A stretch of DNA of 64,000 nucleotides from Eledone cirrhosa (Eukaryota), in assembly GCA_964016885.1 (NCBI GenBank), contig OZ024742.1, positions 134,230,001 to 134,294,000 of the forward strand, read 5' to 3'. The position numbers and the translations under genes were made by a program. Under the pieces are notes generated by a model. It did no database searches, was not told the origin of the DNA, and saw only the letters and a program-made list of their open reading frames with translations. Shown here piece after piece: positions 15,514-58,852 of the stretch (position 1 is its first letter; every line of letters begins with the position of its first letter).

Positions 15514-16384
15514 TATGTATATATACATGTGTGTGTGTGAGTATGTATATATGTACGTACGTATGTATGTAGATATATATGTATGTATGTATGTATGTAT
15601 GTTTATATGTATGTGTGTGTGTATAACTGTGTGTAAATGTGTTACTTGGTCTATGGATTTATCAAGCTTATACATAATCATAGCGCACCAAAATGTTTAC
15701 AATATAATATATATATATATATATATACATATATATAATATGAATTGTGTATTTTTTTCCCTATCCCTGTTTAACGATGTCTGTTTGTATTGTTCTCTGT
15801 TAATAGGAAGTGTGTTACACTTGTTCTGACATCCTATTTTATTCATTCTTTCAAGGCTTTAAATATTTATTTTATTATTCGTCTTAAGGATGATATTTAT
15901 CTTGTTTAAACTGTTCTATTTAGTAAATTATATGAGAAAAACGATAGTATGTTCTAAAAGGCATAAAGAAAACAACACAAATATCAGCTACGAAACTATA
16001 TTTTTACTTTTCAATAATGTATATATACTTATACTTTATATATCGACTTACCTGTTATATACATCTATATATGCTTGTGTGCAGATGTTTGAGAGTGTGT
16101 GGGCGTCATTCTGCTATAAAACACCAACATATAAATGTGTTACTTGGTCTATAGATTTATCAAGCTTGTACAGCAAATGTTTTACAATATAAAATATTTA
16201 AATACGGGTATAAGTTAGGATATAAAAACAACTAATTTATTATCATGAAAGCATTTGATAAATGCTTTCTTGTAATTTCCTAATAAGACATTGAAGGAGT
16301 CTGTGTGGGTGTTTGAAGCGGAGAAAGAGTGATATACACAAAATAAAATAAAAACAATAATACTTTCTTGATTTGGAAATGATT

Positions 16385-16492
<108 letters not shown>

Positions 16493-16559
16493 ATATAAAT
16501 ATATAGTTATGTAATAAACAACATAAGACAATTATTACATTTACCAAAGGTTTCACGAA

Positions 16560-18698
16560 GGCAGACGGGCTCGTGACAGACGTCTGAAATTGTAGCGATT
16601 TCAAATATAGGGATGAACTAACAGACGACTACATATACCAAGCCCAATTGCTGCTTCCAGAAATTGAGGTCGGCTTTAGTAATGAATTATACAACAGAGC
16701 TCTCATTGATATTAAGGACAAGTTAGCTCTGATTTGAGGCAAGGTTTTACGTGACTACGGTTTACCAGAAACTCATCGCACGGACTCAAACAAACATCCC
16801 ACATATATCATACAGGAGACTTCTCATGACATCCATGATCTAGGTCTCTACTTCACAGATAATGAGTCAAAACTTCTAGCTGATCAGCGACCACCATTAC
16901 TGAATCGGTATTTCAAAGAAGAGGTGGCATATGTTTCCTCGATGTTCCAGTGGGGACAGGAAAATCTTTCGTTACTAAACTTCTTCTTGTAAAGGTTATA
17001 CATAATAAGGACATAGCAATAGCAGATGCGTCGTCTGGAATCGCACCAACTTTGCTCCCTGGAGGAAGGACGGCACATTCAGTTTTTAAATTGCCCTTTC
17101 ATTTGCAGAATTGGAAATTTATACTTGTCATATCATCATAAACTCCGAAAGGGGCTCATCTGCTGCGAAGGTGTCACCTTATTGTTTGGGGTGAGTGCAC
17201 AATGGCGCACAAATTTGCTCTTGAGGCACTAGACAGGTATTTGCAAGGCATACGGGATTGCAGTGATGTTATGGCGGGTGTCACCCTTCTGCTATCAGGA
17301 GACTTCAAACAGACTCTTACTATAATACTGAAAGGAACAAGAGCAGATGTCTCAAGACTTCACCATTGTGGCGACACGTGACTTCATTAAGACTAACTAC
17401 CAACTTGCGTGCAATATTGCATGGTGACCCTCTGTCATCAACATTTTCTGGAGACATTCTTACAATAGGAGATGGTAACCTACCTACGGATACAGATGGA
17501 TACATAGCAATTGATCACATCTGCAATGTAGTTGAAACTGTCGATGATCTCAAGGCGAGTGTATTCCCGAACTTGCGTGATAACTATACGAAACTTTAGT
17601 GGCTATGCGAAAGAGCCATTCTTGCACCCACAAATATCAGGGTTAGCTGTATTAACGATCAGCTTCTTCAGCTTCTTCCTGGCTGTCCACGGATATATAG
17701 ATCTATTTATACTGTATGTGAGCCACAGGATGCGGTCAATAATCCAGTTGAATTTCTAAATTATTTACATCCTCCCGGTTGAATTCCTATTACATTGGTT
17801 CTAAAACAGGAAACGCCAGTTATTTTGCTGAGAAATATCACTCCTCCAAAACTATGCAATGGTACACGCCTTGTGGTTAAAAAACTTTCTCCACTTAGTA
17901 TTGACGCAACCATTCTATCCGGATGCGGAAAAGGCGAGGATGTGATAATAACAAAAATTAGCCTGACTACATCAGGCGTGGATACACCCTCTCCTTTCAC
18001 CGAACCCGATTTCCCCTTCGTGTTGCCTTTGCGATGTCCATAAATATGTCGCAAGGTCAAATTCTGTCCATCGCTGGAATTCACTTGGATGAACCTTGCT
18101 TTTCGCACGGACAATTCTACGTTGCCTGCAGAGATGGCAGTAGAGATTATCACTTTGCGTTGGTTCCGAAAAAGAAAAACAAAGAATATCGCCTAACCTG
18201 AAGTTCTTTAGTGTTAACAAAAATACTTATTACAGCTCTGCCTTGACTTCACCTTACACATTACAAAACATACCAATGAATATGTCATGTAGGATATTTT
18301 GGATTATAAGTTCAAAATTTAACCATACACAGCGAAGGATGCTCTCAAAGAATACATTTTCTCTTATTCTACTATCATTGTTTTTTTTTGTTTGTATACA
18401 ACTCTGCTTTCATTACAAATTTTTGTAGTTTAGCAAAGTTGCGTGTTTTTTTTTTTACAGATTTGCAACGTGTATTGTCGTTAATCATTTGTACAACTAC
18501 ATCCTGTTCAGTGTATTCCTTCATTATCAGCATAGTTTTATGTGTGGAAAGATTACACTAAATATTCGTTTGCATTAATTATTGAAGACTTCTTCTTATT
18601 TTGACAGGTTGGGGACAAATAATTAACTTCTTTTACTTCCTAGCTCTATATTCTTAGCATAATTTCAATACCCGGGCAACGCCTGGTAAATCTGCTAG
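16560..18698 (+). mobile_element. 5'-truncated Helitron: PIF1-like helicase pseudogene plus canonical 3' terminus
   Basis: GTGKSFVTKLLL (Walker A), ASSGIAPTLLPGGRTAHSVFKLP, LLSGDFKQTL, LRLTTNLR, ILTIGDG and PVILLRNITPPKLCNGTRLVVKKL. 3' hairpin ccgggc-aac-gcctgg (18672-18686) followed by CTAG (18695-18698) and a T. Confidence 0.9.
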
Positions 18699-18830
18699 TT
18701 TATATATATATATATATATATATAAGCAAGTATTTCACCAAGAGAAATACGACGGCGGCGTGAAGAGATTATTAATTTATTTGTATGACATATGTTTCTG
18801 TATCTATTATAAATTGTCTACATAAGCTGG

Positions 18831-18865
<35 letters not shown>

Positions 18866-19010
18866 ATATAATAAATGTAATATGAGTTTTTTCGAATATT
18901 AATACTAACATTCGATTCGTTTGCAATTATGCAAATATGCCTCAATTTTATAGCCATCTCAGTAGAATGAACCCTTCATTCTTGATCTTGTTTTTGGCAT
19001 GTGAACACAA

Positions 19011-19054
19011 CTGCATACACTAGTGTTTCGGGGCATCACCCTTCATCAGTACAG
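19011..19054 (-). ncRNA. Minimal type I hammerhead ribozyme (canonical core)
   Basis: Minus strand: ctgta CTGATGA aggg-tgatg-cccc GAAA cactagtg TA tgcag. Helix I ctgta/tgcag, palindromic helix III acactagtgt, GUA cleavage triplet. Confidence 0.8.
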
Positions 19055-20051
19055 CTCAGTGTTCACCTGCCAAACTGTCAGAAATAGTGTGTCCGCGTAA
19101 GAGTGCCTGCATGCGTACGTGAAGGTACGAGGCCGGTTGAATTTCTTTATATGAATGTCTATATGTAGATTACTGCTTGTATTTGTTGTTTGTATTTATA
19201 ATTGTTGTGATTGAAACATATAATTGTATTTATAATTGTTGTGATTGAAACCATTCAAAACAGGATTTGCTATTACTACGACATGGGAACCAGTTGATCA
19301 GTGAATTGCACCATATTTCCATCTTATTACCTTTCTCCAATTTCCACTACCGACCAACATTCATATATCATTTATAATATAAAAGGAGTTTAATGTTAAT
19401 TATATTTCATACTCAAAGGTTATTAGATGTTTCGCTATATTTTAACAAGGTAAGGGTTTTATATTATTGCATTTAAAAAAAAGCATCAAACCATCTTCTC
19501 ATATCTGTAGATATCTATTATTTGGGATGCATTTCGATAAATATTTACTGAATAATCATAGATTAAATCGATAGCGAATGCTACATATAAGTAGATGGAG
19601 CAGAGTGAGAAGCAACGTTTCATGTAACTGCGAACTACAATGTAATTAAAGCATGTTATTTCCGTTTAGAATTATTGGTTGTGATCTACATATCATTTCA
19701 TTTGCAGATGAGGGATTAGTATACGTTTCATAATTATGTATGTCTCATCCATTTCATATTTTAAAGCTATGTATTGAAGCAGGGAAATTACAAACGGTAT
19801 ATTGATTAGCAACAATACACTTAATATTAGGTCTGTTAACCATGGTCATTATCGAATAAACTCTATTTAATAATGTTTTCTGATTTAGGCATACTTCTCA
19901 TGCTACGTAATATAAATTCAATTCAACAGTACGACCCAGACTGTGGATATTATACACGTCTTATATAACACATATTTTAAACAGTCATCATACGAAACTA
20001 ATTCATATACCGTAACAGAGTGAGAGAGAGGGAGATAGAGAGAGAGAGGGG

Positions 20052-38435: not shown

Positions 38436-38777
38436 ACAAAAAAAAATGGCGTAGATATACAACACAACAGGAGGAAAAAATATAACACCACTGACGATGT
38501 TGCAGATGTGCAACGAAAGATTTATGTAAATTATGTAAACTATATATATGTGTTTGTGTCTATATTGTATCTGTATTATTTTTGACCGTCGGTCAGTCAA
38601 TGGCAACATTGAGGACCGAGCAAGTTAGATCGCAGATATAAAAGACAGCGTGAAGCGAAAACCAACCAAACAGTGAGTGTGTTCTGTTATTAATTCTGGC
38701 AATATTACGCAAATATGACCCTCCCCAAGTATAATGTATATAAATATATTTGGCAATATACCGTTTGTTTAATTATC

Positions 38778-38811
<34 letters not shown>

Positions 38812-39366
38812 AATATTTGGCAATATACCGTATGTTTAATTAAAAACATTTAGAAGACCATACGCTATCACTTTTAAAGTAGTGACTATGTCACTTACTC
38901 TGTTTCAATATATATATATATATATAAGGCAAATGGACCTAATCTCTTCGTGAAATAGTAGCATCGCCGTCTATTAACACGATGTTCGTTGGGCATATTA
39001 TACTATTGTTTCTCAGCGAATGATATCGGTAACGAAGGAGAAAGGAAAACCCACATCATTTCAGTTTTCTAATAGCTTATTTATGGACCAGGATTTAAAG
39101 AAAAACAATGGGCAATACGGTATTATTTTAAAGCAGAGATTGTGAGCCGCCCAAATAGTGAGATATTTTTAATCCGGCACGCTGAATTCTCTGATAATTA
39201 TTCAGTCAACTAAGATTACTATTACAATTCCAACACTGACCGAAATAAATGAATATACATACATATATATATACATGTGTGCATGTATGATATATATGGT
39301 TTTATATTCATGTGCATACACATATATATTTTCCATATATACATATATATAAATATAAATATATAA

Positions 39367-41199: not shown

Positions 41200-41900
41200 T
41201 ATAAAAATCTGATATTAACAAAACCTGCTTTCCCCGTTTGGGATCTTCAAATCATTTGTTATATAGCTTCAAATGTTTTTACGTGAAAATTCATATCTGC
41301 TGATTTTCGACCACAATGGTCCTTGCTAAATAAATCGATACTGATTTTATTGTTGTCACTTGCGGGTAAAGAAGTTTGCTAGCGTGTTGCCTCCACTTTC
41401 TTCTGTATGTTTGATTTGAAGGGTGTTTCTGGTATACGGTGTTCTGAATTTCTGGCTTTGGACTGCCATTCTTTGTTGGGGTGTCAGCCCGGCCTGTCCT
41501 ACATGATGTTCGCTGCAACCTTGACAGGTTATGACATGTATTAAGTTTTCGACGTTGCCCAAGTTGATCTGTGGCAACTATAATAACTATGTTGCAGGCC
41601 ATCTCCATATCAACATTTGTTTTCAGTATATTTTCTATGTTTATGTTTGCCGTCATTTCTTTATTGCTTATTTCTTTATTCTTATAGAATTCCTGGAATT
41701 CTATAAGAATCCAACATCAGTAATTTTTCAACAGATTTTGTCACAAACTTCAAATTTCATTAACGTTCATTTATGATATTTAGTCAACAACGCTCCATCA
41801 TGCATATAGAAAACTCATCAGAGATTGGGCTGTACCAGATTCGTTTCCAACAATGATAGAAGGATCCATATAAAAAAGCAAATTATATTGATTAATTTGA
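41200..41900 (-). mobile_element. Penelope-like element 3' fragment (GIY-YIG endonuclease) with decayed HHR-like end
   Basis: ENLIHVITCQGCSEHHVGQAGLTPQQRMAVQ (41356-41577) is a GIY-YIG-like segment (NLIY.I.C..C...YIG.T...L..R). Downstream minus strand: ttgaaga tccc-aaac-ggg gaaa (~41226-41250). Confidence 0.75.
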
Positions 41901-45145: not shown

Positions 45146-45229
<84 letters not shown>

Positions 45230-45298
45230 TATGAAGAGAGAAGGAACATTTAGATATAATTAGTAATAAAATGTATCATACCTCAACTGCTCCTAGAT

Positions 45299-45388
45299 TC
45301 CTCGACTACGTAGTTTCGTGGCATAAACAAAAACAGTACATCATAAAGATATAGAGCCTTTGCGAGGTCTGCCGACTTATCAAGAGGA
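45299..45388 (-). ncRNA. Type I hammerhead ribozyme, U3-A8 core variant (copy 1)
   Basis: Reverse complement of the motif at 46362-46451. Confidence 0.7.
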
Positions 45389-45890
45389 TACCTCATTTTA
45401 TAGCTTCAAGAACGCATCTACACGACGTGAGAAAGAATCCCAAAAGGTGGAGGGGGAGATAGTCACGCGATATAACGGTCGAGAAACAGAGCTAAGCCTC
45501 TTATAACCCCGAAGAAAATACCACGGAGGCGGAGGGGGTATTTATATCGAAGCCGCAGAAGAGGTGGTAAAGGAGGAGAGAAGTATGAGTAATGGCAGCT
45601 TTCCAGCAGTCACTACACTTCAAAGATTACTCAACCAGAGGGAGTTATGAACAATATATTTAGAAACACACAGATACATGCGGACACACACATATACATG
45701 AATGCATCCACATCCAACCGCGAGTTAATGGTGCCAACCTCACCGATGTTGCTCAATGAATGACTGGGACAGACCAATCCGGTTGAACCAGACTGAACCA
45801 GTATCAGAGTTAAAAATACATTATGAAGAGAGAAGGAACATTTAGATATAATTAGTAATAAAATGTATCATACCTAAACTGCTCCTAGAT

Positions 45891-45980
45891 TCCTCGACTA
45901 CGTAGTTTCGTGGCATAAACAAAAACAGTACATCATAAAGATATAGAGCCTTTGCGAGGTCTGCCGACTTATCAAGAGGA
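45891..45980 (-). ncRNA. Type I hammerhead ribozyme, U3-A8 core variant (copy 2)
   Basis: Reverse complement of the motif at 46362-46451. Confidence 0.7.
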
Positions 45981-46361
45981 TACCTCATTTTATAGCTTCA
46001 AGAACGCGTCTACACGACGTGAGAAAGAATCCCAAAAGGCGGAGGGGGAGATAGTCACGCGATATAACGGTCGAGAAACAGAGCTAAGCCTCTTATAACC
46101 CCGAAGAAAATACCACGGAGGCGGAGGGGGTATTTATATCGAAGCCGCAGAAGAGGTGGTAAAGGACTTCTCGCCTCCTTTACCACCTTTTCTGTGGCTT
46201 CGATATAAATACCCCCTCCGCCTCCGTGGTATTTTCTTCGGGGTTATAAGAGGCTTAGCTCTGTTTCTCGACCGTTATATCGCGTGACTATCTCCCCCTC
46301 CGCCTTTTGGGATTCTTTCTCACGTCGTGTAAACGCGTTCTTGAAGCTATAAAATGAGGTA

Positions 46362-46451
46362 TCCTCTTGATAAGTCGGCAGACCTCGCAAAGGCTCTATA
46401 TCTTTATGATGTACTGTTTTTGTTTACGCCACGAAACTACGTAGTCGAGGA
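46362..46451 (+). ncRNA. Type I hammerhead ribozyme, U3-A8 core variant (copy 3)
   Basis: tcctc TTGATAA gt(c)ggc...gccac GAAA ctacgtag TC gagga. Perfect helix I tcctc/gagga, palindromic helix III actacgtagt, GUC triplet, extended helix II loop. Confidence 0.72.
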
Positions 46452-46682
46452 ATCTAGGAGCAGTTGAGGTATGATACATTTTATTACTAATTATATCTAA
46501 ATGTTCCTTCTCTCTTCATAATGTATTTTTAACTCTGATACTAGTTCCGTCTGGTAAAACCGGATTGGTCTGTCCCAGTCATTCATTGAGCAACATCGGT
46601 GAGGTTGGCACCATTAACTCGCGGTTGGATGTGGATGCATTCATGTATATGTGTGTGTCCGCATGTATCTGTGTGTTTCTAA

Positions 46683-46762
<80 letters not shown>

Positions 46763-56110: not shown

Positions 56111-56441
56111 ACTGTTCCCTATATGTAAGGGTAGGCCATATGATCAATATATAATCGTTTTCTACTTCTTCCACTCTATGATACAGGCTATGAAACACAG
56201 TATGCTCCACATTTTATATATATATATCAATTGTTTTCAATCATTTTTATTTGTTTGACCCGAATAACTTGGTCGTTTCTATGGTTGTGCGGATGACGGT
56301 TTAACCATCGTCTCAGGGTTTTTGGCCTTTAACGTGTGTTGTAGCTCTGGTTCGTCAGAATTATTGAGCGCTTGTCACACATCTCGGAAGTTGTTTTTCG
56401 CTATTTCCAAAGCCGAAATACGATTCTCGCTAATTTATGTT

Positions 56442-56467
<26 letters not shown>

Positions 56468-56472
<5 letters not shown>

Positions 56473-57050
56473 AGAATTGGTGCTCTGAAATAGCGATATT
56501 AATATGAATGTATATATAGTGTATTTTGCAATTTTGCAATACACTGTATGCTTAATTAAAACCATTTTGAATGCCGTACGCTATTGTTTAAAAGTAACGA
56601 CATTGTCGCTAACTTAAATTTTCGGCAGACTGGGGTAGATAAGTTGACAGCGCTGTTTGGTACTTTTTGGTACTTATCAAAACACACTACTCTCCCCGTC
56701 TGCCGAATGTTGGGTTCTTATAGAATTCCAGTAACAATCAGGAACTGAGTTTACACAGCGGTCGCCGGCCCAGCAGAAATCGAAAATTAGAATTGGTGCT
56801 CTGAAATAGCGATATAAGTTTATGAATGTATATATAGTCTATTTTGCAATACACTGTAAGCTTAATTAAAAGCATTTTGAAGACAATACGCTATTGTTTT
56901 AAAGTAGCGAGATTGTCGCTTACTTAAATTTTCGGCAGTCAGTGGGAGATACTATTTGGTACTTATCAAAACTCATCAGCTCTGTTTCGTACTATTTGGT
57001 AGTTATCAAAACTCACTACTCACTACCAGCAACAGGTCTGACCTGTTTAA
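56468..57050 (-). repeat. Diverged ~318-bp tandem repeat carrying U3-A8 hammerhead motifs
   Basis: 56468-56640 recurs at 56785-56950. Minus-strand motif gtt TTGATAA gtac-caaaaa-gtac cAAA cagcgctg TC aac (56643-56683) and TTGATAA ctac-caaata-gtac GAAA cagagctg (~56976-57013). Confidence 0.65.
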
Positions 57051-57151
57051 TAGCGGGTATCACCGAAAAATATATTGCAGCGAATATGAATAAACGAAGT
57101 TAATTGTAACCTGTTGAATTACACTTCTTGTTTATATATATATATATATAT

Positions 57152-57255
57152 GAAAAAGGATGACCCCGACGGCAGAGCTCAAACCGTTTCGACGGCTATT
57201 TCCAGAAATATCCGTCGAAACGGCTTGGGCTCTGCCGTCGGAGTCATACTTTTTC
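57152..57255. repeat. ~104-bp GC-rich hairpin/palindrome inside a (TA)n-flanked insert
   Basis: gaaaaaggatgaccccgacggcagagctcaaaccgtttcgacgg...ccgtcgaaacggcttgggctctgccgtcggagtcatactttttc. Confidence 0.85.
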
Positions 57256-57465
57256 CTATTTCCCACTCTACTACTCTAAGTATTGAGTACTCTGGTGCGT
57301 TATGGTCCATCTGGTTCCTTACCACAATTCCTTTGTTATATATATATATATATATAGACAATTGAAGGCAGACGTTTGTGCCAGGCTCGTCTGTCTTCCT
57401 GAAACCTTTGGTAAATGAAATAATGTTGTTTATTTCATAACTATATATATATATATATAGGTATA

Positions 57466-57584: not shown

Positions 57585-58852
57585 ATGGCTAACAATATAT
57601 CATTGTACCTCGACTTTGCCAAGGCATTTGACAAGGTAGATCATGGCATCCTGGGATACAAACTTCGAAAGCTAGGAGTAGGAGGGAAAGTTGGTACATG
57701 GATACATGAGTTCCTTAAAAATAGAACTCAAACAGTCACTGTGAATGGAACCCATTCAACACCATCACCTGTGACCAGCAGTGTTCCTCAGGGTGCAGTA
57801 CTCGGCCCGATCCTGTTTCTCATCCTCATCGATGAAGATACAACCAGCAACATCTCATCCTTTGCTGATGACACCAGGGTCATGAGACAAATCAAAGACG
57901 AGGTGGATACAGAGGCCTTACAAAAGGACCTAACCACCATATACAAATGGCAGGAAACAAACAACATATTGTTCAATGATAAGAAGTTTGAACTAATTCG
58001 CTACGGAACAGATCAAGATCTGAAAAATACAACAAACTACAGAAACCCATCAGGACAACAAATAATGGAAAAACAGTGTGTGAAAGATTTAGGCATCCAC
58101 ATGGGAACCAGCCTAAAATTTAGAGAACACCTTGACTCAGTCTGTCTTACTGCAAGAAAGTACGGCGGGTGGATCTTGCGCACCTTCAAATCAAGAGATA
58201 CCTCAACAATGAAAACCCTCTGGAACAGTGTTACTTCCGAGGATTGACTACTGTTCTCAGTTGTGGTCACCATCAACAAAGGGCCAACTATCTAAGATGA
58301 AATCGCTCCAAAGAAATTTTACCTCATACTTCTCAGAAACGAGGGACCTGGATTATTGGCAAAGACTCAAAACCTTGAAGAAGTACTCAATAGAAAGAAA
58401 ATTTGAGCGATACCGAAGTATATACATTTGGAAAATGATAGAGCAAAAGGTGCCAAACTTTGGTATCAAAACCTACCACTCACTGCGCCACGGAAGATGC
58501 TGCCAGCTACCACCAATCAGCAAAAGGGCTGGCCAGGCAGCAAAAACCCTGCGAGAGTCAAGTCTGTTGGTTCGAGGGGCACAACTATTCAACTCCATTC
58601 CGGTACATGTAAGAAATCTATCAGGATGCAGTGTGGAATCATTCAAATTGCAGCTGGATAGATACTTAAGCACCATTAGAGATGAACCCCATCTCCCAGG
58701 ATATACACAACGAGCACAAACGGACTCAAACTCGCTCCTACACATGTCAAAATTAAACAGAGAATCCAACCTGGCAACCACACCAGACTCTGAGGGTGGA
58801 GACTTCGACTTGGCCTGAGCATGGACTCAAACCCAAATGAAATGAAATGAAA
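57585..58852 (+). mobile_element. 5'-truncated CR1/L2-group LINE (RT and C-terminus), one frameshift near 58230
   Basis: [67 protein letters not shown] and FKLQLDRYL. (atgaa)n tail at 58838-58852; flanked by TA arrays. Confidence 0.9.

What the first reader, a model, noticed from the sequence alone, without database searches (positions are those of the whole stretch)
56468..57050. Second, unrelated tandem repeat family with the same U3-A8 hammerhead core
Seen: a ~318-bp tandem unit unrelated to the 45-46 kb element carries three partial minus-strand copies of TTGATAA-gtac-caaawa-gtac. The merged consensus is gtt TTGATAA gtac-loop-gtac GAAA cagcgctg TC aac, with helix I gtt/aac and palindromic helix III acagcgctgt. 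No single copy is intact: copy 1 has CAAA, and copy 2 lacks the cleavage triplet. Inference: the variant recurring in two families argues that U3-A8 HHRs are a real lineage in this genome. The tandem ~300-nt unit size fits animal non-LTR retrozymes.
Basis: partly seen in the sequence, partly recalled or inferred. Interest (0 to 1): 0.78.

Follow-up and report, generated by a model that had tools for sequence, protein, structure and literature searches.

The report
Decayed hammerhead-ribozyme tandem repeat
This is a worn-out pair of copies of a short, multi-copy animal repeat whose intact relatives carry a complete self-cutting hammerhead RNA with a core base-pair swap (U3-A8) that is already known in nature, so it is a real but fairly ordinary retrozyme-like element.

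Summary
At 56467-57036 (minus strand) lie about 1.8 head-to-tail units (period 306-318 bp, 78% identical), unrelated in sequence to the 45-46 kb element. Both local copies are broken. It most likely works like a non-LTR retrozyme: a dimeric hammerhead cuts out a ~310-nt monomer that Penelope-type machinery copies. Cleavage and circular RNA are untested. U3-A8 is not new: it was reported in natural hammerheads in 2011 and in ~1,300 Schistosoma Penelope-type motifs in 2014, and I found it in viral contigs and two unrelated metagenome loci. A shared U3-A8 lineage is not shown, and a C3-G8 hammerhead family abuts this locus. Only the pairing of U3-A8 with a canonical tandem-type fold was absent from the papers I searched.

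The parts
56467..56782 (-). Unit B: near-complete 316-bp repeat unit, 38% G+C, no ORF with a Pfam match, with one hammerhead broken at G12
56783..57036 (-). Unit A: 5'-truncated upstream unit, 78% identical to unit B; hammerhead lacks its cleavage strand
56622..56706 (-). Full canonical-type type-I hammerhead of unit B including the distal stem-I extension (arms 56706-56691 and 56639-56622)
   Evidence: fold z -6.0; constrained hammerhead fold -24.9 kcal/mol against an alternative minimum of -34.7
56681..56690 (-). 4-nt 5' bulge (56690-56687) and helix I 5' strand (56686-56681); U at 56684 mismatches here but is A in family copies
   Evidence: row 56684: 100% of contig depth, 99 of 103 and 79 of 80 reads
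56674..56680 (-). Core box U3-U4-G5-A6-U7-A8-A9 (U3 = 56680, A8 = 56675)
56660..56673 (-). Helix II, 4 bp with G10.1-C11.1 and a 6-nt CAAAAA loop, the same loop as in the Rfam HH9 consensus
   Evidence: HH9 consensus printed
56656..56659 (-). Core box 12-15.1, here CAAA; C12 is a minority change, family copies read G12
   Evidence: row 56659: 99% of contig depth in X1 and X3 (36 and 38 contigs), 128 of 140 and 103 of 112 reads
56646..56655 (-). 8-nt palindromic helix III (56655-56648), U16.1 (56647) and C17 (56646); predicted cut between 56646 and 56645
   Evidence: hairpin +1.3 kcal/mol as monomer, duplex -16.9 as dimer
56639..56645 (-). Helix I 3' strand (56645-56640) followed by U at 56639, the position of the first 3' bulge base in HH9
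56977..57019 (-). 5' half of the unit A hammerhead: bulge, helix I 5' strand, U3-A8 box, helix II (C at 10.1; G in family copies), intact GAAA, part of helix III
   Evidence: row 57002: over 99% of contig depth, 272 of 285 and 241 of 250 reads
56950..56975 (-).
   Evidence: bin 56953-56975 has contig depth 0 and almost no reads, though the tool warns that a hole proves nothing
56444..56466 (.). (TA)n tract at the 3' end of the element on the minus strand; possible insertion target
   Evidence: sequence; target role inferred from PMC8557442

Best explanation
A decayed, 5'-truncated dimer of a multi-copy, non-coding ~310-bp repeat family that works like an animal non-LTR retrozyme. In intact family members, a transcript through tandem units holds two canonical type-I hammerheads. 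Their palindromic helix III strands pair with each other to form a double hammerhead, loop 2 docks on the stem-I bulge, and U3-A8 stands in for C3-G8. Each copy cuts after GUC and releases a ~310-nt monomer, which is probably circularised by a host ligase and copied back as more-than-unit DNA by a Penelope-like element's reverse transcriptase and endonuclease, near (TA)n tracts. Shown: tandem unit, hammerhead anatomy, intact family letters, compensated helix I, all unit junctions present in other copies. Inferred from known families: dimeric cleavage, circularisation, mobilisation by a Penelope-like element. This locus itself is most likely dead: unit B has C12 and unit A lacks the cleavage strand.
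For: Family copies restore every local defect: G12 in 99% of contig depth and 128 of 140 and 103 of 112 reads; helix I pair at 56684 in 100% of depth, 99 of 103 and 79 of 80 reads; G10.1 at 57002 in over 99% of depth. Molecules laid on the unit A core run on at 56978 into a longer (10-nt) palindromic helix III, UC and a helix I 3' strand (10 and 9 contigs, 259 and 229 reads; consensus agreement 0.71-0.99), and 57011 reads C in 114 of 122 and 90 of 93 reads (49% and 61% of contig depth) opposite a G in that loose end: a U-A to C-G compensatory change. Divergent contig pieces bridge 56783, 56705 and the hammerhead's 3' side (records 2-7, 9-14 of the 16 shown of 5,696), so the unit closes head to tail in other copies. 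The layout matches the Rfam HH9 consensus (4-nt 5' bulge, 6-bp helix I, 4-bp helix II, CAAAAA loop) and the description of canonical metazoan hammerheads (PMC4209133). Helix III is unstable as a hairpin and stable as a dimer. Unit B folded as a circle scores z = -3.5, 0 of 100 shuffles as stable. Size, G+C below 50% and no coding match fit non-LTR retrozymes (PMC7229834). U3-A8 hammerheads are reported active in vitro (PMC3088659).
Against: No cleavage or circle data. Only two units lie here, neither complete, which fails the two-intact-unit definition of an active retrozyme (bioRxiv 10.64898/2026.07.22.740005). The body of the unit is 10- to 100-fold deeper than the hammerhead part in the contig sets, so most relatives either have a more divergent ribozyme or none; this is unexplained. 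Only 40 of 191 variant rows were shown; none is at positions 3 or 8, but a C3-G8 minority is not excluded. RAD-seq reads pile up from few loci and are not independent copies, and X1 and X3 are one sample that may be the source of the window. No contig spans a whole unit. The unit B minimum-energy fold is not the hammerhead fold, by about 10 kcal/mol. In the cited preprint 8 of 9 predicted dimers did not cleave. The circle fold score is partly driven by the stem-I hairpin.
Confidence: 0.65

Rival explanations
1. The unit is the pseudo-LTR (terminal repeat) of an autonomous Penelope-like element, left here as a 5'-truncated partial tandem; the hammerhead trims the long element RNA rather than making small circles.
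For: Partial tandem with a truncated first unit, end at a (TA)n tract, an opposite-strand hammerhead remnant abutting at 57036-57132, and a 42-bp duplicated tail on the related fragment at 38734-38842 are features described for Penelope-like insertions (PMC8557442). Retrozyme units are homologous to such terminal repeats in Xenopus, so the two readings overlap.
Against: Animal Penelope terminal repeats mostly carry minimal hammerheads without the loop-loop architecture (PMC4209133, PMC7761336), whereas this one is canonical. No GIY-YIG or Penelope-type match among 57 of the 79 frames of 50 aa or more at 52-62.5 kb; the only clear hit is a LINE-type RT fragment. The unit closes head to tail in other copies.
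Confidence: 0.22
2. The repeat is a very abundant satellite- or SINE-like family that mostly lacks a ribozyme; only a minor subfamily picked up or kept a hammerhead, and spread is by DNA-level or LINE-driven means with no role for cleavage.
For: Contig depth is up to 300,000-400,000 on the body against 16,000-20,000 on the core and under 2,100 just 3' of the ribozyme. Window fragments at 38733-38899 and 39113-39143 hold body sequence only.
Against: Depth also drops 15-fold inside the body at 56746-56768, where this copy differs from the family at four listed places, so low depth can reflect divergence rather than absence. Compensatory change in helix I and different but still palindromic helix III strands imply selection on the RNA fold.
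Confidence: 0.1
3. The hammerhead resemblance is a chance product of palindromic tracts and of merging broken copies.
For: No single local copy is intact; Rfam finds no hammerhead here; the descriptor was written after seeing the motif.
Against: Family reads independently restore G12, G10.1 and helix I and show covariation; 0 hits in 200 shuffles; layout and loop 2 match HH9.
Confidence: 0.03

Closest known systems
Animal non-LTR retrozymes (coral, mussel, axolotl; Cervera and de la Pena 2020, PMC7229834)
   Same: Short non-coding tandem unit within the reported 150-450 bp range, G+C below 50%, one canonical type-I hammerhead per unit, weak palindromic helix III suited to dimeric cleavage.
   Different: Core is U3-A8, which the parts I read (2 and 3 of 6) do not mention; the supplement could not be read. 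Circular RNA and cleavage are not shown here. Local copies are broken.
Canonical type-I hammerheads: Rfam HH9 (RF02275), Schistosoma SMalpha, newt satellite 2
   Same: 4-nt 5' bulge, 6-bp helix I, 4-bp helix II, CAAAAA loop 2, U after helix I, distal stem (HH9 consensus).
   Different: U3-A8 in place of C3-G8; longer (8-10 nt) palindromic helix III; no cmscan hit on this locus.
U3-A8 minimal hammerheads of Penelope-like elements (Schistosoma mansoni Cercyon, about 1,300 hits; Cervera and de la Pena 2014, PMC4209133)
   Same: Same core covariation in an animal retroelement-linked type-I hammerhead; the same UUGAUAA heptamer is in that paper's supplementary alignment; palindromic helix III position.
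   Different: Those are minimal motifs with short helix I and no defined loop 1, mostly single copies; this one has the canonical loop-bulge fold in a short tandem unit. The 45-46 kb element of this window is closer to them.
Natural U3-A8 hammerheads of phages and bacteria (Perreault et al. 2011, PMC3088659)
   Same: Same compensatory core pair; 10 of 91 viral-contig loci from my scan form complete U3-A8 type-I hammerheads.
   Different: Stable hairpin helix III, monomeric, no tandem repeat, no sequence relation outside the core.

Membership tests
Type-I hammerhead ribozyme | Core boxes with a 3-8 base pair, G12-A13-A14, A15.1-U16.1 pair and H17 | tested here: met
   U3-A8, A15.1-U16.1 and C17 in unit B; G12 in the family. 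Not met in either local copy alone.
Type-I hammerhead ribozyme | Three helices, open at helix I, with support from covariation | tested here: met
   compensatory pair at 57011 and alternative palindromic helix III.
Type-I hammerhead ribozyme | Site-specific self-cleavage | not testable with these tools
   Needs an in vitro assay.
Canonical (HH9/SMalpha-like) type-I hammerhead | 6-bp helix I, 4-bp helix II, 6-nt loop 2 and bulged stem-I extension for tertiary contact | tested here: met
   Sizes and loop 2 match the HH9 consensus printed; the bulge's last base differs (G here, C in HH9). The tertiary contact itself is inferred.
Non-LTR retrozyme | Head-to-tail tandem unit of about 150-450 bp with one type-I hammerhead per unit | tested here: met
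   1.8 units of 306-318 bp; junctions bridged in other copies. Array lengths elsewhere unknown.
Non-LTR retrozyme | Non-coding, G+C below 50% | tested here: met
   38% G+C; no Pfam match in frames over the element. PBS and PPT were not searched for.
Non-LTR retrozyme | [quoted passage not shown] | tested here: not met
   Both local hammerheads are broken. This lowers the claim for the locus, not for the family, which could not be tested without the assembly.
Non-LTR retrozyme | Expression as monomeric linear and circular RNA | not testable with these tools
   No RNA run was offered.
Non-LTR retrozyme | Target-site duplication longer than 4 bp when present | tested here: inconclusive
   By eye none is visible: one end is a (TA)n tract, the other abuts another repeat remnant.
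Penelope-like element terminal repeat | Adjacent RT plus GIY-YIG ORF | tested here: not met
   57 of 79 frames at 52-62.5 kb scanned; only an RVT_1 hit at 57585-58244. Truncated copies often lack the ORF, so this does not exclude the origin.
Penelope-like element terminal repeat | Minimal hammerhead lacking loop-loop architecture | tested here: not met
   The fold is canonical; some Penelope-like elements outside animals do carry canonical motifs (PMC4209133).

The most novel reading that the evidence does not exclude
An abundant, still-transcribed animal retrozyme class with a fixed U3-A8 core that CUGANGA-based surveys have missed, whose subfamilies differ in their palindromic helix III so that only like copies can dimerise and cut, and which descends from or is mobilised by U3-A8 Penelope-like elements such as the young 45-46 kb family in the same genome; L001 and L002 would be the same design in another organism.
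Probability: 0.15. Interest if true: 0.55.

Novelty: new variant of a known kind. Interest (0 to 1): 0.3.

Why it matters
If intact copies cut, this extends the U3-A8 core from phage hammerheads and minimal Penelope-type motifs to canonical, tandem retrozyme-type hammerheads of animals. Surveys built on the CUGANGA box, and Rfam, would then undercount animal retrozymes. It also offers a natural test of how helix III palindromes set dimer specificity. It does not change hammerhead chemistry, and this locus is a relic.

Tried and rejected
No whole genome is held, so no genome-wide descriptor scan or copy count was possible. No RNA holder listed. Rfam: no hammerhead among the 150 of 163 window-wide rows shown, nearly all microsatellite-driven miRNA matches, none on 56550-57100; on seven outside loci only sub-threshold HH9 matches to L001 and L002, E 0.4-0.5. 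Tandem Repeats Finder misses the unit. The canonical-looking CTGATGA at 56979-56973 arises at the duplication junction and has no helix II or GAAA in register: rejected as a second core. A hammerhead-like look at 56240-56340 folds no better than shuffles (z -0.7): rejected. The first constrained fold used a wrong register and is superseded. Five of the 15 viral loci passing the loose filter (L006, L029, L041, L081, L084) have only one helix III pair and were dropped, leaving 10 of 91. Earlier scan findings: none by sequence, none for the first word set. Literature searches for U3-A8 or C3-G8 wording gave only PMC4209133, PMC3088659, PMC3884650 and PMC7151607 as hammerhead papers; two searches gave nothing useful. 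Supplements: no UUGAUAA in 11 files of PMC3088659 (figures may not be text); the PMC7229834 supplement was unreadable; one file of PMC4209133 was not searched. Lunse et al. 2017 on Penelope-linked hammerhead variants is not held and may already report this combination. The organism was not identified.

Full report
Setting. The window is about 30-49% G+C by 2-kb bins, mostly near 33%, and rich in microsatellites and LINE-type fragments. I infer an animal genome; the organism was not identified and no assembly is held.

Observation. Two related units lie head to tail on the minus strand: unit A (57036-56783, 5'-truncated) and unit B (56782-56467). They align at 78% over 247 columns, E 7e-56. The period is 306-318 bp. 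No BLAST match joins them to the 45.2-46.7 kb element. TTGATAA starts at 57009, 56969 and 56680. The 56969 box belongs to a 26-bp internal duplication that replaced the cleavage strand of unit A. Unit A also has C at 10.1.

Anatomy. Unit B reads: distal stem arm (56706-56691), 4-nt bulge, 6-nt helix I strand, U3-A8 box, 4-bp helix II with a CAAAAA loop, box 12-15.1, 8-nt palindrome, U16.1-C17, helix I strand, U, distal arm. The Rfam HH9 consensus printed has the same element sizes on the 5' side and the same loop 2. PMC4209133 (parts 1-2 of 4 read) describes canonical metazoan hammerheads as 6-bp helix I, 4-bp helix II and a short palindromic helix III that needs a second copy. Here the 10-nt A15.1-U16.1 stretch costs +1.3 kcal/mol as a hairpin and gains -16.9 as a duplex. 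The 95-nt stretch folds at z = -6.0. Against this, the monomer hammerhead fold (-24.9) is 10 kcal/mol above an alternative rod (-34.7) in this mutated copy, and cmscan finds no hammerhead on the locus. A relaxed descriptor hits once in the window and in 0 of 200 shuffles, but was written with the motif in view.

The family test. I laid two contig sets (X1, X3; one sample) and two RAD-seq read sets (X4, X5) on 56470-57130 at 80% likeness (4 of the 6 runs listed). Position 12 reads G in 99% of contig depth (36 and 38 contigs) and in 128 of 140 and 103 of 112 reads. The helix I mismatch at 56684 is repaired in 100% of depth and 99 of 103 and 79 of 80 reads. Position 10.1 of unit A reads G in over 99% of depth and 272 of 285 and 241 of 250 reads. 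Molecules laid on the unit A core continue at 56978 into a 10-nt palindromic helix III, UC and a helix I strand (10 and 9 contigs, 259 and 229 reads), so GAAA, the triplet and helix I occur together. In these, 57011 is C (114 of 122, 90 of 93 reads; 49% and 61% of contig depth) opposite G: a compensatory change. Loop 2 is CAAAAA in 61% of contig depth at 56994, the rest presumably the window's CAAAUA. No row at positions 3 or 8 is among the 40 shown of 191; a C3-G8 majority is unlikely, a minority is not excluded. Divergent contig pieces cross 56783, 56705 and the 3' side of the ribozyme, so the unit closes head to tail in other copies, but none spans a whole unit. Limits: RAD reads stack from few loci, the contig sample may be the window's source, and summed depth is not copy number.

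Unexplained. The unit body reaches summed depth 300,000-400,000, the core 16,000-20,000, and the stretch just 3' of the ribozyme under 2,100. A 15-fold dip inside the body at 56746-56768, where this copy differs from the family, shows that divergence alone can do this. Still, a larger family without the ribozyme is possible. Body-only fragments lie at 38733-38899, 39113-39143 and 41679-41717.

Mechanism. Most likely (0.65): read-through transcription of tandem units, double-hammerhead cleavage after GUC, release of a ~310-nt monomer, ligation to a circle, and reverse transcription and insertion by a Penelope-like element. The steps after cleavage rest on PMC7229834 (parts 2-3 of 6), PMC7761336 (passages) and bioRxiv 10.64898/2026.07.22.740005 (parts 1 and 3 of 5), not on data from this organism. 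(TA)n targeting and duplicated tails are described for Penelope-like elements in PMC8557442 (passages). That C12 abolishes activity rests on my recall that G12 is the general base; PMC8490949 (passages) says changes in the GAAA box can inactivate or slow cleavage. The main rival (0.22) is a terminal repeat of a full Penelope-like element; no such ORF was found in 57 of 79 nearby frames.

Is U3-A8 a lineage, and is it new? PMC3088659 (passages and part 3 of 8) reports C3-G8 covarying to U3-A8 in several natural hammerheads and notes that such ribozymes had been shown active in vitro. PMC4209133 reports about 1,300 U3-A8 minimal motifs linked to a Schistosoma Penelope-like element, with the same heptamer in its supplement. 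My scan of viral contigs gave 91 loci, of which 10 (five distinct sequences by inspection) form complete U3-A8 type-I hammerheads; L017 and L021 fold into that shape at minimum energy. A metagenome scan gave 2 loci, L001 and L002, with U3-A8, the CAAAAA loop and a different, fully paired helix II, in degenerate repeats spaced about 370 and 400 bp; both lack a standard U16.1 and share nothing with this element outside the ribozyme. In the window, the 45-46 kb family has three intact U3-A8 motifs with a 59-nt helix II region in a tandem-plus-inverted layout, a different architecture. Directly upstream, 41 and 45 contigs matching 57058 onward begin with the usual CUGAUGA box on the opposite strand. 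So U3-A8 recurs across unrelated hammerheads and coexists with C3-G8 here; common descent of the two families is not shown. I did not find U3-A8 described in a canonical tandem-repeat hammerhead, but Lunse et al. 2017 (title only, in a reference list) and the PMC7229834 supplement were out of reach and may hold it. PMC6155905 and PMC7151607 were seen as passages only.

Verdict. Real feature; dead local copies of a multi-copy repeat family with a complete canonical type-I hammerhead; works like a non-LTR retrozyme, membership unproven without cleavage and circle data. A modest new combination of known parts. Interest 0.3.

Noticed in passing
window 45224-46689: Young repeat with three intact U3-A8 type-I hammerheads (45383 -, 45975 -, 46367 +), 59-nt helix II region, 8-nt palindromic helix III, copies 97-99% identical, tandem spacing 592 bp plus a 1,037-bp palindrome: a Penelope-like tandem-plus-inverted layout.
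   Followed up: partly
window 57036-57132 (+): Remnant of another hammerhead-bearing repeat back to back with unit A; family contigs carry the usual CUGAUGA box, a longer helix II, GAAA and a TA palindrome, while the local copy has lost the first box; an AATAAA follows.
   Followed up: partly
window 57148-57259: Near-perfect 112-bp hairpin next to a TA run, -79.4 kcal/mol, z -15; possibly an inverted-junction or MITE-like relic.
   Followed up: no
window 38733-38899, 39113-39143, 41679-41717: Further fragments of the same repeat body without ribozyme; the first has a 42-bp duplicated tail across a TA run, the last a short inverted duplication.
   Followed up: partly
window 56973-56979 (-): The internal duplication in unit A creates a canonical CTGATGA box by coincidence, with no helix II or GAAA in register.
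   Followed up: yes
L001 965-1075 (+) and L002 950-1060 (-): Two related metagenome loci with U3-A8, CAAAAA loop and a GGCC helix II in degenerate ~370-400 bp repeats; both have C where U16.1 is expected.
   Followed up: partly
L009, L017, L021, L060, L076 (around 401): Complete U3-A8 type-I hammerheads in viral contigs that Rfam did not report at E <= 1.
   Followed up: partly
window 57585-58818 (+): LINE-type reverse transcriptase fragment in two overlapping frames (RVT_1, E 8e-16); 57369-57552 matches 16394-16586 at 88%, partly through TA runs.
   Followed up: no
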